This document shows, one piece after another, positions 3,114-16,311 of a stretch of 64,000 nt of DNA. Position numbers and translations under genes: made by a program. Numbering within the stretch: position 1 is the first letter of the stretch; each line of letters starts with the position of its first letter. The notes under the pieces are model-generated. The model saw only the letters and a list, made by a program, of their open reading frames with translations, was not told the origin of the DNA and searched no databases. The DNA comes from Acidimicrobiaceae bacterium (GTDB taxonomy: Bacteria > Actinomycetota > Acidimicrobiia > Acidimicrobiales > JACDCH01), in the NCBI GenBank assembly GCA_041166385.1, contig JBEEFW010000021.1, positions 32,185-96,184 on the forward strand. Reading direction: 5' to 3'.

Positions 3114-4028
3114 TTAGGGGGTGAGCTCGCCTCGTTCGAGGAGCTCGACGGGGTCCTGCATGCGCACCATCCCGAGGTAGCCGCCGCCCCGCGGAATGCT
3201 GTCGTGCACCGAGTAGCCGATCAGCTCCTGCGCCTGGCGGGGCAGCTTGGCCGCCATCGAGGGCGGGATCGACAGGTAGTTGTTCTCCTCGGTGCGCAGC
3301 CAGCCGAGGCAGTAGCTGAGGTGCGCGCCTCGTCGCGGGATGTCGGTGGTGTTCGACCCGCCGGCGTGGATGGTGCCGCCGAGGTATACGACGGCGGAGC
3401 CGGCCGGCATCTCGGCGTACGCGATCTGCTCGGGCGCCGGCTGTGGACCCGTTACCTGTTCCGCCGGCGTCAGCGCGCGATCGGGCCACAGATGGGAGCC
3501 CGGTACAACGCGGGTTGCGCCGTTCTCCCGCGTGAAGTCGACGAACGCGATCACGGTGGCGAGTTGCAGCTCCGGGCCAGGGCGGGGCATGTCACTCCAC
3601 ACCGCTTCGTCGCGGTGGAGCCATTGCTCGTCGGAGCCGGGACCGCGCTGCAACAAGTGGCCGAGGTTGAGCTGATACCGCGCGCACGACGGCAGCAGGA
3701 TGCGGTCTGCGAGCGCGAGCAACAGCGGATGGCACATCACGTCGACGGCGAACGTGGGGGAGAGTCCGGGGGCACCACTCACCTGGCGCGTGTGCGGGCC
3801 ATGGAACGCCTGCATCACGGGATTGAACATCGCGTCCTCGGGATCGGCCTGGTCGAGCGCGGCGCCCACCTCGTTGTTGACCCGCGCGACGACATCGGGC
3901 GAGAGCAGACCCTCGATGATCACGGCGCCGTCGCGCAGGATCGCCTCGTGGATCGTGTCCGGATCGGCGTCTGCATCGAACCGCTCGAGCGTCGCGCTGG
4001 TGGTCGTCGGTGTCGCCATGGCCGTCAT
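3114..4028 (-). CDS. phytanoyl-CoA dioxygenase (PhyH) family Fe(II)/2-oxoglutarate oxygenase
   Basis: The start is taken at the internal ATG (MTAMATPTTTSATLERFDAD...). This gives an ATGA overlap with the upstream stop at 4025-4028. PhyH-like sequence throughout (...HRDEAVW..., ...GTIHAGGSN...). Confidence 0.8.
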   Translation of the reverse strand: MTAMATPTTTSATLERFDADADPDTIHEAILRDGAVIIEGLLSPDVVARVNNEVGAALDQADPEDAMFNPVMQAFHGPHTRQVSGAPGLSPTFAVDVMCHPLLLALADRILLPSCARYQLNLGHLLQRGPGSDEQWLHRDEAVWSDMPRPGPELQLATVIAFVDFTRENGATRVVPGSHLWPDRALTPAEQVTGPQPAPEQIAYAEMPAGSAVVYLGGTIHAGGSNTTDIPRRGAHLSYCLGWLRTEENNYLSIPPSMAAKLPRQAQELIGYSVHDSIPRGGGYLGMVRMQDPVELLERGELTP

Positions 4029-5146
4029 CCTCCCAGGGCGGCGGCGATGGTGGCCACCGCGTCTCGCCCGTAGCTCATCGATTCCTCGTAGCCCTCGGTG
4101 AACGGCGACGGCAGGTAGCCATGCCACTCGGGCGCGAGGCCGGCGAGCAGCACATGGGCGTCGCCCTCGCGGGTCTCGATCGACCGCCCGAGCTCGTGAA
4201 ACGCCTCCCCGGGGACCGACACGAGCCGCACCGGGCCGATCGACCACTCGATGAGCTCGATCTGCAGGCGCTTGCCCTCGCGCCCTCCGGTGAGGACCGT
4301 CGAACCGAGCTCGATGTCGATCATGCGGTGCCGTTCCACCGTCGCGCCGCTCGCTTCCACCGGCTCGGCGTCGCGAAGTACGGCGTCGACGCCCTCGGCG
4401 ACGTCGCGTCCGAGTTGTTCGGCCTCCGCGAAACCGTCGTGCGTGCAGTCGTTGTGCTGCCGGTGCACGTGATGCGGATTGACGTCACCCAGCGCGCCCG
4501 ACAGCAGCACTGCTGTGCCGCCGGCCCGTTGCTGCAGTGCGTCGCGGAACGGGCCCACCCAGTCGCTCGACACCGCGAGGCATTCGGGGCCGAGTGCGAC
4601 GGGGTGAATGGCGATGTTGGCGAGCGTGCCGACGCGTGTGCCGTCGGGTGCGATCGCGTCGAGCACCGCGAACGTCGGGTGATACGGCAGCCCGCGCCGA
4701 TTGATGGAGAGTCCGTCGGGCAGGGGCCAGCGACCGGCGCGCAACGACGCTGGCGTCGCCGCCGCGGCCGCGGCGCGAGCGGCGGCCAGGCAGCGCTCGA
4801 TCAGCAGCTCGCGATAGCCCTCGGGCGTGACCCAACCGAGAGGATCGCTGCCTTCGATCGTGCTCGGTCCCGCATGCGTGTGCACGCACGAGGTGAGCAC
4901 CGCGCCCATTTCGAGGCCGAGCGCCTCCGCCACGGCCGCACGCACGGGTGTCGCGAACCCCCGCGACATCCCGAGCAGGTCGCACACGAGGAGGCACACC
5001 GCACCAGGCGAGCCGCGCAGGAACATGGCGCGCACTTCGAGGTCGTCGTGCACCTCGGTCGCCGGTTGATTCTCGATGAAGCCGGCGAGCTGCACCGGTG
5101 TTGGCGGCGTGATGACGGCCGAACCGAACCCCACCTCCAGCGTCAC
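4025..5146 (-). CDS. neutral/alkaline ceramidase N-terminal-domain-like hydrolase
   Basis: GTG start at 5146 (VTLEVGFGSAVITPP...), overlapping the upstream stop by 4 nt (GTGA). The motifs GxxxxxITPP and CVHTHAGP resemble the ceramidase N-terminal zinc-site region. At 373 aa it lacks the ceramidase C-terminal domain. Confidence 0.65.
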   Translation of the reverse strand: MTLEVGFGSAVITPPTPVQLAGFIENQPATEVHDDLEVRAMFLRGSPGAVCLLVCDLLGMSRGFATPVRAAVAEALGLEMGAVLTSCVHTHAGPSTIEGSDPLGWVTPEGYRELLIERCLAAARAAAAAATPASLRAGRWPLPDGLSINRRGLPYHPTFAVLDAIAPDGTRVGTLANIAIHPVALGPECLAVSSDWVGPFRDALQQRAGGTAVLLSGALGDVNPHHVHRQHNDCTHDGFAEAEQLGRDVAEGVDAVLRDAEPVEASGATVERHRMIDIELGSTVLTGGREGKRLQIELIEWSIGPVRLVSVPGEAFHELGRSIETREGDAHVLLAGLAPEWHGYLPSPFTEGYEESMSYGRDAVATIAAALGG

Positions 5147-7337: not shown

Positions 7338-7422
7338 CGCCGGATCCTACGGCGCTCCAACTTGGGGTCGTTACGCCTGCCCTGACGAGCACAACGACCC
7401 CAAGTTGGAGAGGCGACGGGGG

Positions 7423-7986
7423 TCAGCTGCCGAAGCGCTTCACCAAGGCGTGGACCCGTTTGGTGAACGCGTCCTCGTAGCGGCCGTGGAACTCGTCCCA
7501 CGTGCAGAGCGTGCGCGTGTCGGTCACGCGGTCGATGAACAGCGTGCCGTGCAAGTGGTCGGTCTCGTGCTGGAACGTTCCGGCCGAGAGCCCGCGCACG
7601 ACGGTGTCGATCGGGTCGCCATTGCGGTTGAGCGCCTGCACCCGTACCTCCACGGCGCGGTCGACGATGCCGCGCAACCCGGGCACCGACAGGCAGCCCT
7701 CGTAGTTGGCGAACGTCTCGTCGGTGAGCACCTCGACCGTCGGATTGATCAGCACCGTCAACGGGATCTCGGGCTTGTACGGGTAGCGCGGGTTGCCGGG
7801 TCGCACCTCGATCACGCACACCTGCACCGGTTCGCCGATCTGGTTGGCCGCGAGTCCCGCGCCATTCGCAGCGCGCATGGTGTCGATCAAGTCGTCGACG
7901 AGGCGCTGCACGTCGGCCGGCGCGACCGGTTGCGCACCCTCACGCAACAACGGGTGTCCGATCTGGATGATCTCGCGCACGGTCAT
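7423..7986 (-). CDS. def: peptide deformylase family protein (all three catalytic motifs intact)
   Basis: 187 aa from the internal ATG (MTVREIIQIGHPLL...). Motifs GAGLAANQIG, EGCLSVPG and QHETDHLHG are present. ATGA overlap with the hutI stop (7983-7986). Confidence 0.9.
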   Translation of the reverse strand: MTVREIIQIGHPLLREGAQPVAPADVQRLVDDLIDTMRAANGAGLAANQIGEPVQVCVIEVRPGNPRYPYKPEIPLTVLINPTVEVLTDETFANYEGCLSVPGLRGIVDRAVEVRVQALNRNGDPIDTVVRGLSAGTFQHETDHLHGTLFIDRVTDTRTLCTWDEFHGRYEDAFTKRVHALVKRFGS

Positions 7987-9104
7987 CGCGGCACGCCCTT
8001 CCGGATGACCGTGTGCGCGTGATCCGTGCCGATCCAGTAGATGAGCTCGACCGGAGTCTTCACATCCCAGATCACGAGGTCCGCTTGGTCGGGCGGCAGC
8101 CCCAGCGCGCGGGCGGCATTGGTTGTCATACCGGCGATGGCCTCGTTGACGGTGAGGCCGAAGCGAGTGCACGCGAGGTGCATCGCGACGAACGGTGAGA
8201 GCAGCGGCGACGTCCCGGGATTGCAGTCGGTGGCGATGGCGATCGGGATCCCCGCAGCCCGTAGTGCATCGATCGGGGGCGTGGCCTCCTCTCGCAGCAC
8301 ATACGCCGCACCGGGAAGCAGCACGGCGACTGTTCCTGCGGCAGCCATCGCGGCGATGCCGTCGGGGGACACGTGCTCGAGATGATCGGCCGACAGGGCG
8401 TGGTGCTTCGCGGCGAGCGCGGCACCACCGCCATCCGAGAGCTGGTCGGCGTGCAGTTTCACGCGAAGTCCGAGCGCGGACGCGGTCGTGAAGACACGAT
8501 TGATCTGATCGCCGGTGAACGCGATCGATTCGCAGAACCCGTCCACCGCGTCGGCGAGACCTTCCTCGGCGACCCGGGGCAGCACCTCTCCGCACACAAG
8601 ATCGATGTAGCCGTCGGGGTCGCCTTCGAACTCGGGCGGGATCGTGTGCGCACCGAGATAGGTGGTGACCACGTCGATCGGCATGATCTCGGGCAATCGT
8701 CGGGCGACCCGCAGCATTCGCAGCTCGGTCTCGAGGTCGAGGCCGTACCCGGACTTGATCTCTACCGTCGTGACGCCCTTGAGCATCAACTGCGTCGCGC
8801 GCGCGGCTGCGCTCGTCAGCAGCTCGTCCTCGGTGGCAGCTCGCGTTGCCGCCACGGTTGATCGAATACCGCCGCCGGCGCGCGCGATCTCTTCGTACGA
8901 CCCTCCCGCCAGGCGTTGTTCCCACTCGTGTGATCGATCACCGGCGAAGACGAGGTGCGTGTGACAGTCGACGAGCCCGCGGGTGACGAGTCCTCCCTCG
9001 GCATCGAGCACCTTTCTCGCCGTTTCGTCTGGCGGAACGATCCGCCCATCGGCGATGCCGATGTCGACGCCGTCGGTGGTGTTCGTGATCAGGAGGTCGA
9101 GCAT
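7983..9104 (-). CDS. hutI: imidazolonepropionase
   Basis: 373 aa from the internal ATG ([10 protein letters not shown]...). Amidohydrolase HxH (DCHTHLVF), ...KLHADQL..., ...ATDCNPGTSP... The start overlaps the hutF stop by 1 nt (TGATG). Confidence 0.9.
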   Translation of the reverse strand: MLDLLITNTTDGVDIGIADGRIVPPDETARKVLDAEGGLVTRGLVDCHTHLVFAGDRSHEWEQRLAGGSYEEIARAGGGIRSTVAATRAATEDELLTSAAARATQLMLKGVTTVEIKSGYGLDLETELRMLRVARRLPEIMPIDVVTTYLGAHTIPPEFEGDPDGYIDLVCGEVLPRVAEEGLADAVDGFCESIAFTGDQINRVFTTASALGLRVKLHADQLSDGGGAALAAKHHALSADHLEHVSPDGIAAMAAAGTVAVLLPGAAYVLREEATPPIDALRAAGIPIAIATDCNPGTSPLLSPFVAMHLACTRFGLTVNEAIAGMTTNAARALGLPPDQADLVIWDVKTPVELIYWIGTDHAHTVIRKGVPR

Positions 9105-10216
9105 CAGCGCAACGCCGCGATCGACGCTCGCAACTCGGCGGCGACGTCGATCGAGACGTGCTGCCGGTCGCGAACGACCGTTCGACCCCCGACCTCGACC
9201 TCGACCACGTCGGCCGCGGTAGCCGCCGCGACGATCATGGGCACCGGGTCGTCTGGATCGAAGCCCGCGAGCCGCACGCTGTCGAGATCGATCGCGCACC
9301 GGTCGACGGTGCCCGTCGCGGTGGCCAGGAGGTCGTGTGGCTGGTGCAGGCCCCGCCGCCCGGTCACGAGTCGCTCGTCGAGCTCGATGGCGCGCGCCTC
9401 CTCGAACAGATCGACGACCGCATGCGAGTCCGTGCCGACGCGCAGCACGCAACCGGCGTCCGCCAATGCCGCCGCCGGTCCCACACCGTCGCCCAAGTCG
9501 CGCTCGGTCGTCGGGCACAAGCACACCGATGTGCCAGTCGTCCCCAACAAGGTGATGTCGTCTGCCGTGACGTGCGTGCAGTGCACCGCCGTCGTCGATT
9601 GCCCGAGCACGCCACACTCGTACGCAAGTTGCGTGGGCGTACGACCGGTGGCGGCCACGCATGCCTCGTTCTCGGCCGGCTGCTCGGAGAGATGGATGTG
9701 CAGCGGCACGCCTCGCCGCTGTGCCCATGTCGCGACGAACGCCATCGACGCGGCGTCGACGGCACGCACACTGTGGATGGCCGCACCGACGACGACGTCG
9801 GGGTTGGCGGCCGCCACCTTCTCGGCGCGCGCCGCCCAACGTTCAGCGTCGCCGTCCGAGAATCGCTGCTGCACAGGATCGAGGTCAGCGCCGTCGAACC
9901 CTGCCCGCAAGTAGCACGTGTCGAGCAGCACGAGCCGGATGCCCGCGCGTCGAGCGGCCTCGCAGATGGCGTCGTCCATCCCATCGGGCTGATGGAGGTA
10001 GTGGAACTCGTGCACGGTCGTGATGCCGGTGACCACCAACTCGGCGAACGAGGCCGTCGCCAGCGCGAGCAGCGAATCCGGATCGAGCCGCTCGACCAAC
10101 GAGTACATGCCGGTGCGCCACGCCCAGAAGTCGTCACCGGCGGCGCGGCCGCGCAGCGCTCGGTGAAAGGCGTGCGAATGGGTGTCGACGAGTCCCGGCA
10201 ACCAATGTGGATTCAT
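9104..10216 (-). CDS. hutF: formimidoylglutamate deiminase-like amidohydrolase (short N-terminus)
   Basis: 370 aa. It begins directly at the metal-binding segment [18 protein letters not shown] and continues collinear with HutF as I remember it (FWAWR..., HEFHYLH, HIHLSEQ, GTDSH). ATGA overlap with the hutU stop. Confidence 0.75.
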
Positions 10217-11868
10217 TGCTGCATGGGCAGGTGCATGCCGGTGTCGCGGGCGACGCGCAAGGCCTCCGGGTATCCCGCGTCCGCGTGGCGGGCCACGCCG
10301 CTGCCCGGATCGTTCGTGAGCACCCGCTCCAGCTTCTGCGCGGACAGCTCGGTGCCGTCGGCGACGACCACCATCCCGGCGTGGATGGAGCGACCGATGC
10401 CGACACCTCCGCCGTGATGGATCGACACCCAGCTCGCACCGCTCGACGTGCTCAGCAGTGCGTTGAGCAGCGGCCAGTCGGCGATGGCATCGGAGCCGTC
10501 GCGCATCGCTTCCGTCTCGCGGTATGGCGAGGCAACGGATCCGGAGTCGAGATGGTCGCGGCCAATGACGATCGGTGCCTGTACACGTCCGCTGGCGACG
10601 AGCTCGTTGAACCGCAGCCCCATCCGTTCGCGTTCGCCGTAGCCGAGCCAGCAGATGCGCGCCGGAAGTCCCTGAAACGCGACTCGGTCCGACGCGAGAC
10701 GGATCCAGCGGGCCAGCGGCTCGTTGTCGGGGAACTCCTCGAGCACGGCTTTGTCGGTGGCGCCGATGTCGGCCGGATCACCGGACAGCGCGGCCCACCG
10801 GAACGGTCCCTTGCCTTCGCAGAACAACGGGCGGATGTACGCGGGCAGGAACCCGGGATAGTCGAAGGCCCGCTCGAAGCCGCCGAGCTTGGCCTCGGGG
10901 CGCAGGCTGTTGCCGTAGTCGAAGACCTCGACGCCGCGATCGAGGAACGCCACCATGGCCTCGCAGTGCCGCGCCATCGACTCGCGCGCACGAGTGATGT
11001 ACGTGGCCGGGTCGCTCGTTCGCAGCGCCGCGGCCTCTTCCAAGGACAGCCCCGCCGGGACGTAGCTCAGGGGATCATGCGCCGAGGTCTGGTCGGTGAC
11101 GATGTCGATCGGCGCGTCGCGCGCGACGAGCGCGGGCAACACCTCCGCGGCGTTGCCGAGCAAACCGATCGACAGGGGGTGTCGGTCAGCGCGGGCTGCT
11201 TCGGCGCGGGCCAGCGCATCGTCGATGTCGTCGGCCACGACGTCGAGGTAGCGCGTCTCGACGCGGCGTTCGATCCGGTGCGGATCGACCTCCACCACGA
11301 TGGCGACACCGCCGTTCATCGTCACCGCCAGCGGCTGCGCGCCGCCCATGCCGCCGAGTCCGGCCGTGACGGTGACCGTGCCGGCCAGCGTTCCGCCGAA
11401 GCGCTTCTCGGCGATCGCCGCGAAACATTCGTACGTCCCCTGCAGGATTCCCTGTGACCCGATGTAGATCCACGACCCGGCGGTCATCTGGCCGTACATC
11501 GTGAGCCCGAGCGCTTCGAGCCGGCGGAACTCCTCCCAGTTCGCCCACTCGGGAACGAGGTTCGAGTTGGCGATGAGCACGCGTGGCGCCCACTCGTGGG
11601 TGCGGAACACGGCGACGGGTTTGCCGGATTGCACGAGCAGGGTCTCGTCGTCCTCCAAACCCCGCAGCGTCGCCACGATCGCGTCGAACGCCTCCCAGCT
11701 GCGCGCCGCTCGACCGGTCCCGCCGTAGACGACGAGGTCGTCGGGACGCTCGGCCACCTCAGGGTCGAGGTTGTTCATCAGCATGCGCAGCGCGGCCTCT
11801 TGCGCCCAGCCCTTGCAGGTGAGTTGCGACCCTCTTGGAGCCCGCACGACTCGCGCGCCGTCAGCCAA
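10213..11868 (-). CDS. hutU: urocanate hydratase
   Basis: ...[32 protein letters not shown]... and the rest are typical HutU. The start is uncertain: TTG at 11868 (8-nt overlap with the hutH stop) or GTG at 11847. Confidence 0.9.
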
Positions 11869-13318
11869 GTGCGCCGACCTCCTGCTCGACCGCGGCGAGG
11901 AGCGTGCCCGCGGCGACGAGCTGCGCCGCCGTTTCGAGCTCAGGCGACAGCATGCGGTCGGGCCCCGGACCGGGCACACCCCCGCTGCGCAGTGCCGCTA
12001 TGGCCATGCCGGTGCCCGCGGCGGGTTGCAGTGGCGCCCGCAGATCCACCCCTCGGGCCGCGGTGACGAGTTCGATGGCCAGCACCTTCGTGAGATGGTC
12101 CAGCGCGACGCGCAGCTTGCGCGCGGCCGCCCACCCCATCGACACGTGGTCTTCTTGCATCGCGGAGGTCGGGATGCTGTCCACGCTCGCGGGCGCAGCG
12201 ATGCGCTTGCACTTCGCCACCAGCGCGGCGGCGGTGTACTGGCCGATCATCAATCCGCTGTCGACGCCCGGCTCGTGCGCCAGGAATGGGGGCAGCCCTT
12301 GACTGCGCGACGCGTCGAGGAAGCGATCGATGCGGCGCTCGCTCATCGAGGCGACATCAGCGACGACGATCGCCAGCAAGTCGCAGGCATGCGCCAGTGG
12401 GGCACCGTGGAAGTTGCCGACCGACTCCACCCGTCCGTCGGGGAGCACAACGGGATTGTCGATCGCGGACGCCAGCTCGCGATCGGCGCAGGCCTCGGCG
12501 AACGCGAGGGCATCCCGCGCCGCGCCATGGACCTGCGGCGCGCAGCGCAACGAGTACGCGTCCTGCACCCGCGTGTCGCCGGTGCGGTGCGACGCGACGA
12601 TCGGTGATCCTTCGAGCAGCTTCCGCAGGTTCGCGGCCGATACCTGTTGACCCGGGTGCGGACGCAGCACGATGAGGTCAGCCGCAAAGGCGCGGTCGGT
12701 GCCGAGTAGCCCTTCCACGCTCATGGCCGCGGCGACGTCGGCGGTGCGTAGGAGCCTCGAGAGGTCGACGCATGCGAGCACCAACATGCCGAGCATGCCG
12801 TCGGTGCCGTTGATGAGCGCGAGCCCCTCCTTGGCCTCGAGCGGCAGATCGAGCGCGGCGGCCACGTGCGCCAGCGGCGCGAGATCGCCACTGCAACCGA
12901 GCGAGCCGAACTCCGGGACGTTGGGCAGCCGCTCGTCGTCGAGCAGTGACAGCAATGCCTTCGCCAGGTCGGGCCGCGCCCCGGTGACGCCGGTGGCCAT
13001 CGTGCGCGCCCGCAGCAGGATCATCGCGCGCACGACCTCCGGCTCGACCGGAGGGCCAAGACCGGCGGCGTGCGACGCGATCAGCGACTGCTGCAGTCGG
13101 GCGCGTTGTTCCGCGGGAATGTGGGTGGTGGCGAGCCCGCCGAAGCCGGTCGAGATGCCGTAAACGGGTTCGTCCGACGCCGCCATCGCGTCGACGTGGG
13201 CGCGTGTTGCGGAAATGGTGGCGATGGCTTCGTCGGACAGCACCACGTCGGCACCGTCACGCGCCACCGCCACCACGTCGTCCCGGGTCAACCCCTGAGG
13301 ACGCAGCACGACCGACAC
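11861..13318 (-). CDS. hutH: histidine ammonia-lyase
   Basis: 485 aa with a GTG start. The MIO-region motif reads [14 protein letters not shown], i.e. Cys-Ser-Gly instead of the textbook Ala-Ser-Gly. Confidence 0.9.
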
Positions 13319-13354: not shown

Positions 13355-13648
13355 CTAGGTCTCGTCGCGCAGGACGTCGAGGTTGCGGAACAGCGGAGGC
13401 CCGTCGCAGATCTTCTGTAGCGAAGCGGCGAACTCGGCGGTCTCGGGCCGACTCGAGTTCTCCATCGCGGCCTCGTACGACGGGAACTCGACGATCTGGA
13501 GGTACGTGTTGGCGTTGTCCCGGTCTCGAGTCTGCATGCCGCGCGTGGTGGTGCGGGAGCCCTCGGTGCTCTTCAGGAATTCGTCGAGCGTCTTGTTGAA
13601 CCCGTCGATGTCCTGCGTCTTGAACTCGATGATCTGCACGAATTTCAT
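13355..13648 (-). CDS. small conserved protein, dimeric alpha/beta-barrel (ABM)-like
   Basis: 97 aa from MKFVQIIEFKT... A strong SD (GGAGGAG) lies 6 nt upstream of ATG 13648. Ends 36 nt before the hutH start. Confidence 0.7.
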   Translation of the reverse strand: MKFVQIIEFKTQDIDGFNKTLDEFLKSTEGSRTTTRGMQTRDRDNANTYLQIVEFPSYEAAMENSSRPETAEFAASLQKICDGPPLFRNLDVLRDET

Positions 13649-13688
13649 GGCCGCTCCTCCGTTGTCCACCGTTCTGGCCGCGGCCACC

Positions 13689-14387
13689 CTAGGACGATGT
13701 CGGCGTGGCTGACGGCGGGCGGAACGTCACCCCGCAGATCGTCACCTCGTGCTCGAAGTCGGTGAGCTCGACGACGGCGATGCCTTCATCGCTGGAATCG
13801 TCTGCCGGCTCGAAGCGGATGCCGTGCTCGTCGAGCGACGCGTCGAGGATGCCGGCCCACGCCCGAGCCGCGGCGTCGACGTCGACGACCCGAACGACGA
13901 GCCCGGCGAGCCGCGGCGTCGGGTGAAGGCCGGCGGGCGCGCCCTCGATCCATCGGGGTCCGGCCCAGCGCCATGACGCCGGGATGGCGGGCGTGTCGAA
14001 GGAGACGATCGCCCCGCGCACGTCGGCCGGATGCAGGTGGGTCCCCGAGATGTCCGGCAGGTCGGCCTGCCACACGACGCGCAGGCCCATTGCCGCGGCG
14101 CGTCGCCGCGTCCGCTCCGTGTCCGCGACCTGGAAGATCGCCATGTACCCGGCATCGCCGCCGCGCCGTTGGAGGTAGCGGCCGGCGGTGGTGCCGTCGA
14201 CCGCGGGCGACACCACTTCGAGGAACGTGTCGCCGATCTCGTAGACCGCGTTCGTCAGGCCGAACTCGGCGACGCCTGGGTCCACGAACGGATCGTGCAG
14301 GCCGAGCTCGTCCTCGATCCGCGCGCAGGCCGCCTCGAGATCGGCCGCCACCAGCGCGACCTGACGCAACCGCGGAAGCGCCATCAT
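13689..14387 (-). CDS. VOC (glyoxalase/bleomycin-resistance/dioxygenase) family protein
   Basis: 232 aa from MMALPRLRQVALVAADLEAA... Two-module VOC-like layout. The start overlaps the upstream lyase stop (ATGATG/TGA). Confidence 0.7.
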   Translation of the reverse strand: MMALPRLRQVALVAADLEAACARIEDELGLHDPFVDPGVAEFGLTNAVYEIGDTFLEVVSPAVDGTTAGRYLQRRGGDAGYMAIFQVADTERTRRRAAAMGLRVVWQADLPDISGTHLHPADVRGAIVSFDTPAIPASWRWAGPRWIEGAPAGLHPTPRLAGLVVRVVDVDAAARAWAGILDASLDEHGIRFEPADDSSDEGIAVVELTDFEHEVTICGVTFRPPSATPTSS

Positions 14388-15757
14388 GAGAGCGGCTCGA
14401 AGCGGGCGGTGAAGTGACGCAACGCCTTCGGTTGGTCGACGATGCGATAGCCGGGAAGGTCCTTGGCTCGCGCCGCCACGTCGATGCACACCTCGATCAC
14501 GTAGTCGATGTGGCTCTGCGTGTACGTGCGACGCGGGATGGCGAGCCGCACGAGATCGAGGTTCGCGGGGTGCTCGGTGCCATCGGGATGCAGGCCGAAC
14601 ATCACCGTCCCGATCTCGCACGCTCGAATGCCGCCGGCCTCGTACAACGCAACGGCGAGTGCTTGGCCGGGATAGTGCAGCGGCGGGATGTGCGGGAGCA
14701 GGGACCGAGCGTCGATGTACACCGCATGTCCGCCGATGGGCCGCACCACCGGTACACCCGCGGCGACGAGCGCGTCGCCGAGGTAGCCCGTCGAGCGGAT
14801 GCGATACCGCAGGTAGTCGTGGTCGACCACCTCGCGCAGACCCTGCGCGATCGCTTCGAGATCGCGGCCCGCGAGCCCGCCGTACGTCGGGAAGCCTTCA
14901 GTGAGGATGAGCAGGTTGCGGCAGCGCTCGGCGATGTCGTCGTCGTCCAGTGCGAGCCAGCCACCGATGTTCGCCAAGCCATCCTTCTTGGCACTCATCG
15001 TCATGCCGTCGGCCAGCGCCGCCATCTCTTGCACGATCTCGCGGACGCTGCGGTCGGCGTGGCCGGGCTCGCGCTCCTTGATGAACCACGCGTTCTCGGC
15101 GAACCGGCAGGCGTCGAGGAACAGCGGGATGTGGAACCGATCGCACAACGCACGCACGCCCCGCAGGTTTTCGAGCGAGACGGGCTGGCCGCCGCCGGAG
15201 TTGTTCGTGACCGTGACGAACACCACCGGGATGTCGGTGCTCCGAGCTGACAGCAACGCCTCGAGCGCGGACAGGTCCATGTTGCCCTTGAAGGGATGCA
15301 GCGCCGCAGGGTCGAGGCCCTCGGCGATCACCAGGTCGACGGCTTCGGCGCCCGTGGCTTCGACGTTCGCCCGCGTCGTGTCGAAGTGCGTGTTGTTCGG
15401 AACGATCTTCCCTGGCCCGCCGATCACGCCGAACAGGATCTTCTCGGCCGCACGACCCTGGTGTGTCGGGATCACGTGCCGGAACGGAAACAGCTCCTGC
15501 ACGCTGGCGAGGAAGCGGAACCACGACGGCGACCCGGCGTAGCTCTCGTCGCCGCGCTGGATGCCGGCCCACTGGTCGCGCGACATCGCTCCGGTGCCCG
15601 AGTCGGTGAGGAGATCGATCAGCACATCGTCCGAGTGGATGCTGAAGAGGTTGAAGCCGGCCTCGCGCAACGCGCGCTGCCGGTCCTCGATCGTCGTGAG
15701 CTTCAGCGGCTCCACGGAGTGGATCCGGAACGGCTCGATGATCGTGCGAAAGGCCAT
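14384..15757 (-). CDS. beta-eliminating lyase (tryptophanase / tyrosine phenol-lyase family)
   Basis: 457 aa from MAFRTIIEPFRIHSVEP... The PLP-lysine motif is MSAKKDGLANIGG. Collinear with the TnaA/TPL family. I cannot decide Trp versus Tyr specificity by eye. Confidence 0.9.
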   Translation of the reverse strand: MAFRTIIEPFRIHSVEPLKLTTIEDRQRALREAGFNLFSIHSDDVLIDLLTDSGTGAMSRDQWAGIQRGDESYAGSPSWFRFLASVQELFPFRHVIPTHQGRAAEKILFGVIGGPGKIVPNNTHFDTTRANVEATGAEAVDLVIAEGLDPAALHPFKGNMDLSALEALLSARSTDIPVVFVTVTNNSGGGQPVSLENLRGVRALCDRFHIPLFLDACRFAENAWFIKEREPGHADRSVREIVQEMAALADGMTMSAKKDGLANIGGWLALDDDDIAERCRNLLILTEGFPTYGGLAGRDLEAIAQGLREVVDHDYLRYRIRSTGYLGDALVAAGVPVVRPIGGHAVYIDARSLLPHIPPLHYPGQALAVALYEAGGIRACEIGTVMFGLHPDGTEHPANLDLVRLAIPRRTYTQSHIDYVIEVCIDVAARAKDLPGYRIVDQPKALRHFTARFEPLS

Positions 15758-15759
15758 CG

Positions 15760-16311
15760 CTAGCCGGGCGCGGCGGAGTTCGAGTCTTCGAACTGCTTGA
15801 GCACGCGCGCCATGTCGTACGGCTCCTCGGTCAACGTCGCCGGGTTCCACTGGCTGCGGGGTTGTTGCACGAAGTCGCCGCCGTACACGTGGAGCGCGCC
15901 GGTGTAGGAACGCAGGGGGTTCGTCACGGAGTGGATCGCGTCGTCGCCGAGCATGAGCACGTCGCGTTCACGTAGCTCCTTGCCGCCCGACTCCGCCACT
16001 GTTCCGCCGTCACGCCGGAAGAAGGCGTTGTCCTCCTGCCCGGCGTAGATCCCGATGGCCGCCCACATCCGGTGATCGTGAGGCTGGAGGCGCATGCCTG
16101 GGCCCCACACGACGTTGAGGACCGTGAGCTCGTCGGTGTTGTGGACCAGCGTGATGCCGGCGTGGTGGTGGTCGAGCGCATCAGCCACACTCGCGGCGTC
16201 CGCCACCGCTCTCGTCAGCACCTCCCGGATCGCTCGACGGGGCTCCGACTCAGTCAGCGCCTGCTGGCACTCGGTGACGAACTCTTCGACGACGAACACG
16301 GCGCCCATCAT
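15760..16311 (-). CDS. cupin-fold metalloprotein, cysteine-dioxygenase-like (COG5553-type)
   Basis: 183 aa. Motif VVWGPGMRLQPHDHRMWAAIGIYAGQEDN fits the cupin His motif of CDO-like proteins. The stop lies 2 nt before the lyase start. Confidence 0.65.
   Translation of the reverse strand: MMGAVFVVEEFVTECQQALTESEPRRAIREVLTRAVADAASVADALDHHHAGITLVHNTDELTVLNVVWGPGMRLQPHDHRMWAAIGIYAGQEDNAFFRRDGGTVAESGGKELRERDVLMLGDDAIHSVTNPLRSYTGALHVYGGDFVQQPRSQWNPATLTEEPYDMARVLKQFEDSNSAAPG

What the first reader, a model, noticed from the sequence alone, without database searches (positions are those of the whole stretch)
7423..7986. Intact peptide-deformylase paralogue as the coupled last gene of a hutF-type histidine operon lacking hutG
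hutH, hutU, hutF, hutI and def are chained by 1-8 nt start/stop overlaps. The def ATG overlaps the hutI stop as ATGA.
- The HutF route produces N-formyl-L-glutamate. That product needs an N-formylglutamate deformylase (HutG) to yield glutamate and formate.
- No HutG-type or arginase-type formiminoglutamase gene is present anywhere in the window.
- The def product keeps all three metallo-deformylase motifs (GAGLAANQIG, EGCLSVPG, QHETDHLHG). It is not next to fmt.
Hypothesis: this paralogue has been recruited as the N-formylglutamate deformylase, a non-orthologous replacement for HutG. The alternative is that it is the housekeeping def merely co-transcribed here.
Basis: partly seen in the sequence, partly recalled or inferred. 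Interest (0 to 1): 0.6.

Follow-up and report, generated by a model that had tools for sequence, protein, structure and literature searches.

The report
Deformylase paralogue wired into histidine breakdown
A second, intact copy of the enzyme that normally strips formyl groups from new proteins is the last gene of this bacterium's histidine-degradation operon, and it most likely removes the formyl group from N-formylglutamate, a pathway step with no other recognisable enzyme here.

Summary
On the minus strand, hutH, hutU, hutF, hutI and def (7423-7986) are chained by 1-8 nt overlaps and end in a strong hairpin.

The assembly (an Acidimicrobiaceae MAG, 87% complete) has a second def in a canonical def-fmt-rsmB operon. 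It has no FGase-type HutG and no arginase-type enzyme.

The hut-linked copy belongs to a distinct subfamily ("def2"):
- **Acidimicrobiia:** in 301 sampled genomes, 43 carry def2 and 42 of those have hutF. In 40 of them def2 lies within 3 kb of hutF, in at least seven gene orders.
- **Marine metagenome contigs, probably eukaryotic:** the same domain is fused to HutF in both orders.
- **Sequence features:** catalytic residues are intact, but two hydrophobic Met-pocket residues are replaced (Ala43, Gly136), and Tyr70, Lys71, Arg121 and Thr137 are subfamily-specific.

My best reading (about 0.7) is that def2 is an N-formylglutamate deformylase replacing HutG. No assay exists.

Caveats:
- Close Myxococcota homologues are never hut-linked.
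- About a fifth of HutF-bearing Acidimicrobiia have neither def2 nor HutG.
- An unlinked formiminotransferase-like gene exists in this genome.

No paper reporting this role was found. This scan has already noted the same idea in at least 20 other genomes.

The parts
11861..13318 (-). hutH, histidine ammonia-lyase (485 aa, GTG start)
   Evidence: TIGR01225 583 bits and NF006871 621.5 bits, both above cut-off. Start and stop read.
10213..11868 (-). hutU, urocanate hydratase (551 aa from the TTG start, which overlaps the hutH stop by 8 nt)
   Evidence: TIGR01228 935 bits, with profile positions 2-545 of 545 matched. Junction TTGGCTGA read.
9104..10216 (-). hutF, formimidoylglutamate deiminase. 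It is 370 aa and lacks about 50 N-terminal residues of the family profile.
   Evidence: NF006681 471.9 bits (cut-off 362), matching profile positions 52-447 of 451. ATGA overlap with the hutU stop. No ATG, GTG or TTG lies in the 187 open codons upstream.
7983..9107 (-). hutI, imidazolonepropionase (374 aa; its ATG overlaps the hutF stop by 1 nt, TGATG)
   Evidence: TIGR01224 433 bits (cut-off 298). Junction read.
7423..7986 (-). def2, the hut-linked peptide-deformylase-family gene (187 aa, P0001); candidate N-formyl-L-glutamate deformylase
   Evidence: PF01327 154.6 bits. ATGA overlap with the hutI stop. All metal and catalytic residues are kept. AlphaFold model has pLDDT 96.5, and its best solved match is Leptospira PDF 1sv2 with TM 0.86.
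7355..7410 (-). Long hairpin starting 13 nt after the def2 stop codon; a likely transcript end or stabiliser with no U-tract
   Evidence: RNA fold of 7338-7430 (minus strand): a stem of about 23 bp, MFE -50.8 kcal/mol, z = -5.64, and 0 of 200 shuffles fold as well. The simple terminator scan does not list it because there is no T-run.

Best explanation
The gene at 7423-7986 is a catalytically intact member of a distinct peptide-deformylase subfamily ("def2"). It is translationally coupled as the last cistron of a hutH-hutU-hutF-hutI operon.

Proposed mechanism:
1. HutF deiminates N-formimino-L-glutamate to N-formyl-L-glutamate.
2. def2 hydrolyses the N-formyl group to give formate and L-glutamate. 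It would use the standard deformylase chemistry: a metal held by Cys98, His140 and His144, Glu141 as general base, and Gln49 with the Leu99 backbone stabilising the oxyanion.
3. def2 thereby does the job of HutG (EC 3.5.1.68), which this genome lacks.
4. Protein N-terminal deformylation is left to the other def, in the def-fmt-rsmB operon.

What is shown: operon membership, the second housekeeping copy, no detectable HutG, conserved linkage and co-occurrence with hutF, fusion to HutF elsewhere, and an altered substrate pocket.

What is inferred: the substrate, and the roles of Tyr70, Lys71 and Arg121 in binding its carboxylates.
For: 1. Operon. The five genes have 1-8 nt overlaps, and a strong hairpin follows def2 directly.

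2. Two defs in the genome. C169 carries def (176 aa), fmt and rsmB. The two defs are only 37% identical.

3. No alternative hydrolase. No PF05013 or PF00491 match was found in the assembly.

4. Co-occurrence in 301 Acidimicrobiia genomes.
- def2 (E <= 1e-40) is in 43 genomes and hutF in 55.
- 42 of the 43 def2 genomes have hutF. Fisher p is about 1e-38, overstated because the genomes are related.
- The one exception still has def2 in a hutH-hutU-def-amidohydrolase cluster (L133).
- In 40 of 43 genomes def2 is on the same contig within 3 kb of hutF. In 27 it is directly adjacent.

5. Linkage survives rearrangement. At least seven orders were seen:
- H-U-F-I-def
- H-U-def-F-I
- U-F-def-I
- U-F-I-def-H
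- H-F-I-U-def
- U-def-F
- F-def alone

6. Separation from housekeeping defs. def2 separates from them with SH-aLRT support of 97.

7. Fusions. On TARA Oceans scaffolds the def2 domain is fused to a HutF domain in both orders: P0152 is def-HutF (736 aa, 10 member sequences), and P0172 and P0157 are HutF-def. All keep the subfamily invariants.

8. Pocket changes.
- The Met-binding residues Ile44 and Ile128 of E. coli PDF are Ala43 (97-100%) and Gly136 (91-98%) in def2. In Arabidopsis PDF1B these residues are Ile42 and Ile130, described in PMC3101196 as driving active-site closure through the hydrophobic P1':S1' contact.
- Tyr70, Lys71 and Thr137 are invariant and Arg121 is near-invariant in the bacterial members. 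All four are absent from the nearest true PDF, Leptospira 1sv2.

9. The step is a recognised orphan. The earlier candidate, a COG0624/M20 protein, showed no deformylase activity in Streptomyces avermitilis (PMC3223725).

10. Myxococcota. Even there, where the homologue is unlinked, 14 of 18 genomes with a strong def2-like gene have hutF. The rate among the other 183 genomes is 51.
Against: - No biochemical or genetic test exists for any member.
- In Myxococcota, 66 loci with def2-like genes 56-68% identical to this one have no hut gene within 6 kb. Some of those genomes lack a bona fide hutF: G334 and G335 and 4 of the 18 strong-hit genomes. Several carry FGase-family genes. The subfamily is therefore not strictly a HutG substitute everywhere.
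- No residue cleanly distinguishes hut-linked members from unlinked Myxococcota members. The tree does not resolve them: at least 3 label changes are forced by starred branches, but the AU test does not reject a single Acidimicrobiia clade (p = 0.23).
- 12-13 of the 55 HutF-positive Acidimicrobiia genomes lack def2, and only two of those have an FGase hit. No other candidate was seen next to hutF in them. Another solution must therefore exist.
- Nine def2 genomes also hold an unlinked FGase-family gene.
- This genome has an unlinked formiminotransferase-like gene (FTCD_N, 125-126 bits) on C154, which offers another fate for formiminoglutamate.
- The assembly is 87% complete with 6% contamination.
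- The nearest solved relatives are genuine, active PDFs.
- Free N-formyl amino acids are, to my knowledge, poor substrates of classical PDFs.
Confidence: 0.72

Rival explanations
1. def2 is simply a second conventional peptide deformylase acting on fMet-peptides. It happens to be co-transcribed with hut genes and has no role in the pathway.
For: All PDF motifs and the PDF fold are intact. The closest solved relatives, Leptospira, Burkholderia and Pseudomonas PDFs, are real PDFs. Many bacteria carry two or three defs. Close Myxococcota homologues are stand-alone genes with no conserved neighbourhood.
Against: - A passenger gene would not stay beside hutF through at least seven gene orders in about ten families.
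- It would not be missing from 245 of 246 sampled Acidimicrobiia genomes without a hutF match.
- It would not be fused to HutF in both orders.
- A housekeeping def-fmt-rsmB operon already exists.
- The hydrophobic S1' residues are replaced.
Confidence: 0.08
2. def2 serves the histidine pathway but acts on a different substrate. It might remove the formyl or formimino group from another intermediate or side product, or act broadly on N-formyl amino acids. In that case N-formylglutamate is only one of several substrates, or not the main one.
For: The subfamily occurs in some Myxococcota genomes with no recognisable hutF, which hints at a wider or different substrate range. The enlarged and more polar pocket (Ala43, Asn94, Gly136, Thr137) does not by itself specify glutamate.
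Against: Direct adjacency and fusion are with HutF specifically (27 of 43 genomes directly adjacent; fusions). The only formylated product of the pathway as it is known is N-formylglutamate. Co-occurrence with hutF is near-perfect in Acidimicrobiia.
Confidence: 0.12
3. N-formylglutamate, or formiminoglutamate, is disposed of by another enzyme. Candidates are the unlinked formiminotransferase-like protein on C154 using tetrahydrofolate, or an unrecognised amidohydrolase in the 13% of the genome not assembled. def2 would then have an accessory or regulatory role.
For: An FTCD_N-domain gene (272 aa) is present on C154. The assembly is incomplete. About a fifth of HutF-positive Acidimicrobiia manage without def2 or a recognisable HutG.
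Against: The FT-like gene is not hut-linked; its neighbours are a macro-domain protein and a zf-HC2 protein. Its textbook substrate is formiminoglutamate, upstream of HutF. This rival does not explain why a deformylase is kept beside hutF or fused to it.
Confidence: 0.06

Closest known systems
Peptide deformylase (Def, EC 3.5.1.88; PF01327, TIGR00079), especially Leptospira interrogans LiPDF (PDB 1sv2, 1y6h, 1szz) and the Burkholderia and Pseudomonas 'class I type b' PDFs
   Same: - Same fold: model TM 0.86 and rmsd 1.2 A to 1sv2.
- Same three motifs, metal ligands and catalytic Glu/Gln.
- Same enlarged CD loop with the Arg-Tyr-Pro core, and Arg105-Gly106 as in LiPDF.
   Different: - Not fmt-linked; a separate def-fmt-rsmB copy exists.
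- Embedded in hut operons and fused to HutF elsewhere.
- Ala43 and Gly136 replace the hydrophobic S1' residues.
- Tyr70, Lys71, Arg121 and Thr137 are subfamily-specific, as is a conserved C-terminal helix with Thr162-Trp163.
- The inferred substrate is a free N-formyl amino acid, not a nascent peptide.
HutG, N-formylglutamate amidohydrolase/deformylase (FGase family PF05013, TIGR02017; EC 3.5.1.68) of the five-step Pseudomonas-type Hut pathway
   Same: It occupies the same pathway position, directly after HutF. It shows the same kind of linkage: bona fide HutG is adjacent to hutF in three Myxococcota genomes, just as def2 is adjacent to hutF in Acidimicrobiia. The inferred reaction is the same.
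   Different: The fold and family are unrelated: def2 matches only Pep_deformylase at Pfam E <= 0.001, and no PF05013 match exists in the genome, which includes def2. In Acidimicrobiia, FGase-family hits are not tied to hutF: 17 of 28 are in genomes without hutF.
COG0624/M20 'alternative N-formylglutamate deformylase' of Streptomyces hut clusters (a SEED prediction)
   Same: It was an earlier comparative-genomics candidate for the same orphan step in HutF-type actinobacteria.
   Different: It belongs to a different family, and it was tested and found inactive as a deformylase (PMC3223725, Table 3, case 20). def2 has not been tested.

Membership tests
Peptide deformylase family (PF01327 / TIGR00079) | Profile match above the curated cut-offs | tested here: met
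   PF01327 154.6 bits (cut-off 22.8), NF001159 155.6 bits (cut-off 125) and TIGR00079 116.1 bits (cut-off 103.95).
Peptide deformylase family (PF01327 / TIGR00079) | Three motifs: G-x-G-L-A-A-x-Q, E-G-C-L-S and Q-H-E-x-D-H, with the Cys/His/His metal ligands and the catalytic Glu | tested here: met
   Residues 42-49, 96-100 and 139-144. These are invariant across 40 subfamily members.
Peptide deformylase family (PF01327 / TIGR00079) | PDF fold | tested here: met
   AlphaFold2 model pLDDT 96.5. Foldseek best hit is 1sv2, E 1.8e-20, TM 0.86.
Housekeeping Def (functional role of EC 3.5.1.88) | Hydrophobic S1' pocket for the Met side chain (Ile44 and Ile128 in E. coli PDF; Ile42 and Ile130 in AtPDF1B) | tested here: not met
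   Ala43 and Gly136-Thr137 are found instead, conserved in 91-100% of the subfamily. The role of these residues is described in PMC3101196. Position 136 also varies in real PDFs (Arg in the local housekeeping defs), so this is suggestive only.
Housekeeping Def (functional role of EC 3.5.1.88) | Genomic association with fmt and translation genes; sole or essential copy | tested here: not met
   The other copy, on C169, is in a def-fmt-rsmB operon. def2 sits in the hut operon.
Housekeeping Def (functional role of EC 3.5.1.88) | Deformylates fMet-peptides | not testable with these tools
   This needs an enzyme assay.
HutG, N-formylglutamate amidohydrolase (PF05013 / TIGR02017) | Membership of the FGase sequence family | tested here: not met
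   def2 matches only Pep_deformylase. No PF05013 match exists anywhere in the genome. def2 can only be an analogue of HutG, not a member.
HutG, N-formylglutamate amidohydrolase (PF05013 / TIGR02017) | Encoded with hutF, and present when hutF is present | tested here: met
   42 of 43 def2 genomes have hutF. In 40 of 43, def2 is within 3 kb of hutF.
HutG, N-formylglutamate amidohydrolase (PF05013 / TIGR02017) | Hydrolyses N-formyl-L-glutamate to formate and glutamate | not testable with these tools
   Inferred only, from the chemistry of the fold and the pathway gap.
Arginase-type formiminoglutamase (PF00491) | Membership of the arginase family | tested here: not met
   No PF00491 match in the genome.

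The most novel reading that the evidence does not exclude
The whole def2 subfamily (Acidimicrobiia, many Myxococcota, and HutF-fused forms in marine protist-like contigs) is a dedicated N-formyl-L-glutamate deformylase family. Under this reading it has given up fMet-peptide processing. The CD-loop residues Tyr70 and Lys71, together with Arg121, bind the substrate carboxylates in an enlarged pocket. This would be a second, unrelated enzyme family for EC 3.5.1.68 and the first small-molecule catabolic role for the peptide-deformylase fold.
Probability: 0.5. Interest if true: 0.72.

Novelty: new variant of a known kind. Interest (0 to 1): 0.62.

Why it matters
The five-step HutF route needs an N-formylglutamate deformylase. 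In HutF-type actinobacteria that enzyme has been an acknowledged gap: the earlier M20 candidate failed its assay (PMC3223725).

If def2 fills the gap, several things follow:
- A missing-gene problem in a textbook pathway is solved.
- Hundreds of genes annotated only as "peptide deformylase" need re-annotation.
- The peptide-deformylase fold, an antibiotic target thought to act only on nascent proteins, gains a metabolic function.

It also matters for metabolic reconstruction of abundant uncultured soil and marine Acidimicrobiia.

The idea is directly testable with a recombinant protein and a formate-release assay.

Tried and rejected
- **HutU-def and def-HutF(-HutI) "fusion" proteins from bacterial MAGs** (P0124, P0125, P0137, P0143, P0145). 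I rejected these as Rosetta-stone evidence. The hutU profile stops at positions 389-442 of 545 before the def domain begins. In P0145 the EGCLS motif is scrambled, and in P0143 the conserved C-terminal helix is scrambled. These patterns point to frameshift read-through. Only the TARA fusions (P0152, P0172, P0157) were kept.\n- **Strict HutG/def2 complementarity.** This is not supported in Acidimicrobiia. FGase-family hits are mostly in genomes without hutF, and nine def2 genomes also have one. In Myxococcota the picture is only partly complementary.\n- **Search for another candidate enzyme next to hutF in eleven def2-negative clusters.** Nothing convincing turned up: a methyltransferase with an HTH domain, a Dus enzyme, transporters and unknowns.\n- **Conserved neighbourhood of Myxococcota def2-like genes.** None was found. 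My gene calling was crude and recovered def itself in only 41 of 68 loci. In Enhygromyxa the neighbours are a WD40 protein and a transglutaminase-like protein.\n- **Monophyly of hut-linked def2.** The quick tree interleaves Myxococcota sequences, but the AU test does not reject one Acidimicrobiia clade (p = 0.23). The direction of transfer is unresolved.\n- **The 50%-representative search**. It returned mostly fragments and was not used for the tree.\n- **Sigma-70 promoter and terminator pattern scan.** It found nothing useful.\n- **Literature.** Three full-text searches found no paper linking a peptide deformylase to N-formylglutamate.\n- **Not used:** sequencing-run look-up, read laying and complex prediction.

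Full report
**What is there**

The window is 68% G+C and comes from contig C21 of a 4.35-Mb Acidimicrobiaceae MAG. The MAG has 170 contigs, 87.4% completeness and 6.3% contamination.

Five minus-strand genes are chained:

| Gene | Coordinates |
|---|---|
| hutH | 11861-13318 |
| hutU | 10213-11868 |
| hutF | 9104-10216 |
| hutI | 7983-9107 |
| def2 | 7423-7986 |

All four hut genes score above NCBIfam cut-offs. The junctions are an 8-nt overlap (TTGGCTGA), ATGA, TGATG and ATGA.

The def product (P0001, 187 aa) has all three deformylase motifs. It passes PF01327, NF001159 and TIGR00079.

A hairpin with a stem of about 23 bp starts 13 nt after its stop codon. Its MFE is -50.8 kcal/mol and z is -5.6. 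def2 is therefore the last cistron of the unit.

The genome holds exactly two deformylase genes.
- The other lies on the 30-kb contig C169, which has 67.5% G+C.
- It sits in a def (176 aa) - fmt (Formyl_trans_N plus Formyl_trans_C) - rsmB operon. This is the classical housekeeping arrangement.
- The two Defs are 37% identical.

No FGase-type HutG (PF05013) and no arginase-family protein (PF00491) was found in the assembly. So the hut-linked def is not the only def, and no hutG turned up. The assembly is, however, incomplete.

**Conservation**

Every orthologue in relatives (52-84% identical) lies in a hut cluster, and each of those genomes also has a housekeeping-type def at about 35-40% identity.

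I sampled 301 Acidimicrobiia genomes of at least 85% completeness:
- def2 at E <= 1e-40 is in 43 genomes.
- hutF is in 55 genomes.
- 42 of the 43 def2 genomes have hutF.
- The one exception (G130) still has def2 in a hutH-hutU-def-amidohydrolase cluster (L133).

Comparing coordinates, def2 is on the same contig within 3 kb of hutF in 40 of 43 genomes, and directly adjacent in 27. The remaining cases are one def at a contig end (G225), one truly unlinked copy (G286, L134), and G130, described above.

The gene order varies widely:
- H-U-F-I-def
- H-U-def-F-I
- U-F-def-I
- U-F-I-def-H
- H-F-I-U-def
- U-def-F
- F-def alone

Linkage that survives this much rearrangement across about ten families is strong evidence of a shared function.

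**Fusions**

A search for longer proteins found many apparent fusions.

Those from bacterial MAGs are artefacts. In the HutU-def calls the hutU profile breaks off at about positions 390-440 of 545. P0143 and P0145 have scrambled def motifs or C-termini.

Three protein clusters from TARA Oceans scaffolds look genuine:
- P0152: def-HutF, 736 aa, 10 member sequences.
- P0172: HutF-def, 669 aa, 5 member sequences.
- P0157: HutF-def.

All three have complete domains and the subfamily's invariant residues. Their neighbours have eukaryote-like domain content: an EF-hand Na/Ca exchanger and a 1116-aa WD40 protein. I did not verify a eukaryotic origin. Two fusion orders imply at least two independent fusions with HutF.

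**What kind of deformylase it is**

The AlphaFold2 model (pLDDT 96.5) superposes best on Leptospira interrogans PDF, with TM 0.86 and rmsd 1.2 A. LiPDF is also the best sequence match among solved structures. A tree separates def2 from the housekeeping Defs with support of 97.

Column statistics over 126 sequences and a 40-sequence alignment show:
- **Intact catalytic machinery:** Gln49, Cys98, His140, Glu141 and His144.
- **Subfamily invariants:** Ala43, the loop Arg67-Tyr68-Pro69-Tyr70-Lys71-Pro72, Arg105-Gly106, Arg110, Arg121, Gly136-Thr137 and Trp163.
- **Shared with LiPDF:** Arg67-Tyr68-Pro69 and Arg105.
- **Not shared with LiPDF:** Tyr70, Lys71, Arg121, Gly136 and Thr137.

Ala43 and Gly136 take the places of Ile44 and Ile128 of E. 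coli PDF, which are Ile42 and Ile130 in AtPDF1B. The hydrophobic contact of those residues with the Met side chain is described as the main driver of active-site closure (PMC3101196).

A wider, more polar pocket with extra conserved basic residues on the lid loop fits an acidic substrate such as N-formylglutamate. This is inference: I had no model coordinates, so no distances were measured.

**Complications**

1. *Unlinked Myxococcota homologues.*
   - The genome-collection scan found 453 relatives. Of the best 80, 66 are from Myxococcota, including cultured Enhygromyxa salina SWB005 and SWB007. They are 56-68% identical, and none has a hut gene within 6 kb.
   - They share all the invariants.
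   - The quick tree interleaves them with hut-linked sequences, although a single Acidimicrobiia clade is not rejected (AU p = 0.23).
   - Hut genes are scattered in these genomes.
   - In 201 sampled Myxococcota genomes, 14 of 18 with a strong def2-like gene have hutF, against 51 of the other 183. Four do not.
   - Bona fide HutG (TIGR02017 above cut-off) is rare there and sits beside hutF in three genomes.
2. *HutF without def2.* Twelve or thirteen of the 55 HutF-positive Acidimicrobiia lack def2. Only two of them have an FGase hit, and I found no alternative enzyme next to hutF.
3. *FGase alongside def2.* Nine def2 genomes also have an unlinked FGase-family gene. In this class FGase hits are mostly in genomes without hutF, so they probably do something else.
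4. *A formiminotransferase-like gene.* This genome has an unlinked 272-aa formiminotransferase-like gene on C154.

**Literature and earlier notes**

Three full-text searches found no paper linking a deformylase to N-formylglutamate.

PMC3223725 records that the SEED "alternative N-formylglutamate deformylase" (COG0624) from Streptomyces avermitilis had no deformylase activity. The step is therefore a recognised orphan.

All database copies of def2 are named only "peptide deformylase".

This scan has noted the same idea in at least 20 other genomes. I re-tested the multiple gene orders, the occurrence in a second phylum and the protist-like fusions myself. They hold, with one difference: in my sample the Myxococcota copies are not hut-linked.

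**Verdict**

I put the probability that def2 is the pathway's N-formylglutamate deformylase at about 0.7. It is a new functional variant of a known enzyme family, and it is readily testable.

Noticed in passing
window 9104-10216 (-): HutF is only 370 aa. It starts at position 52 of the 451-position NF006681 profile, right at the first HxH metal motif. No start codon exists in the 187 open codons upstream. The same-genus genome G005 shows the same truncation (profile match from position 38), while other Acidimicrobiia HutFs start at profile positions 3-9.
   Followed up: partly
G000 contig C81:3-3893 (outside the window): A second hutH-hutU-hutF set lies on a 7.5-kb contig that ends inside hutF. 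It is 89%, 94% and 82.5% identical to the window's genes. It is probably strain heterogeneity or contamination in the MAG (6.3% contamination). Whether a def follows cannot be seen.
   Followed up: partly
G000 contig C154:4054-4515 (L148:1165-1983, -): An unlinked glutamate formimidoyltransferase-like gene (272 aa; FTCD_N 125 bits, weak FTCD). It lies next to a macro-domain gene and a zf-HC2 protein. It is a possible alternative fate for formiminoglutamate, or a folate-related enzyme.
   Followed up: partly
L141:4995-6044 and L146:4954-6003: In two HutF-positive Acidimicrobiia that lack def2, a conserved 349-aa protein is inserted between hutI and hutF. It has an Rv2258c-like winged-HTH domain and a SAM-methyltransferase domain.
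   Followed up: no
L046-L114 (Myxococcota loci); L067 and L076 are Enhygromyxa salina SWB005 and SWB007: def2-like genes 56-68% identical to this one are stand-alone genes with no conserved neighbourhood. In four loci a second, housekeeping-type def lies about 5 kb away on the opposite strand. The cultured Enhygromyxa strains offer an experimental handle.
   Followed up: partly
proteins P0126, P0127, P0134, P0136; window 3114-4247 (-): Several 385-447-aa gene calls join a PhyH (phytanoyl-CoA dioxygenase, PF05721) domain to a def2 domain. Per an earlier first-reader note (not checked by me), a PhyH-type gene also sits in the four-gene operon just downstream of def2 in this window. I did not check whether the PhyH-def calls are real fusions or frameshift artefacts.
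   Followed up: no
window 13355-15850 (-): A tryptophanase/tyrosine phenol-lyase family gene (14384-15850; NF009709 671 bits), a glyoxalase-like gene (13689-14621) and a 110-aa ORF with no Pfam match (13355-13687) lie directly upstream of hutH on the same strand. The last ends 36 nt before the hutH start. They may be co-transcribed with the hut genes.
   Followed up: no
proteins P0124, P0125, P0137, P0143, P0145: Apparent HutU-def and def-HutF-HutI fusion proteins in public MAG gene calls look like frameshift read-throughs of adjacent overlapping genes. They should not be cited as natural fusions.
   Followed up: yes
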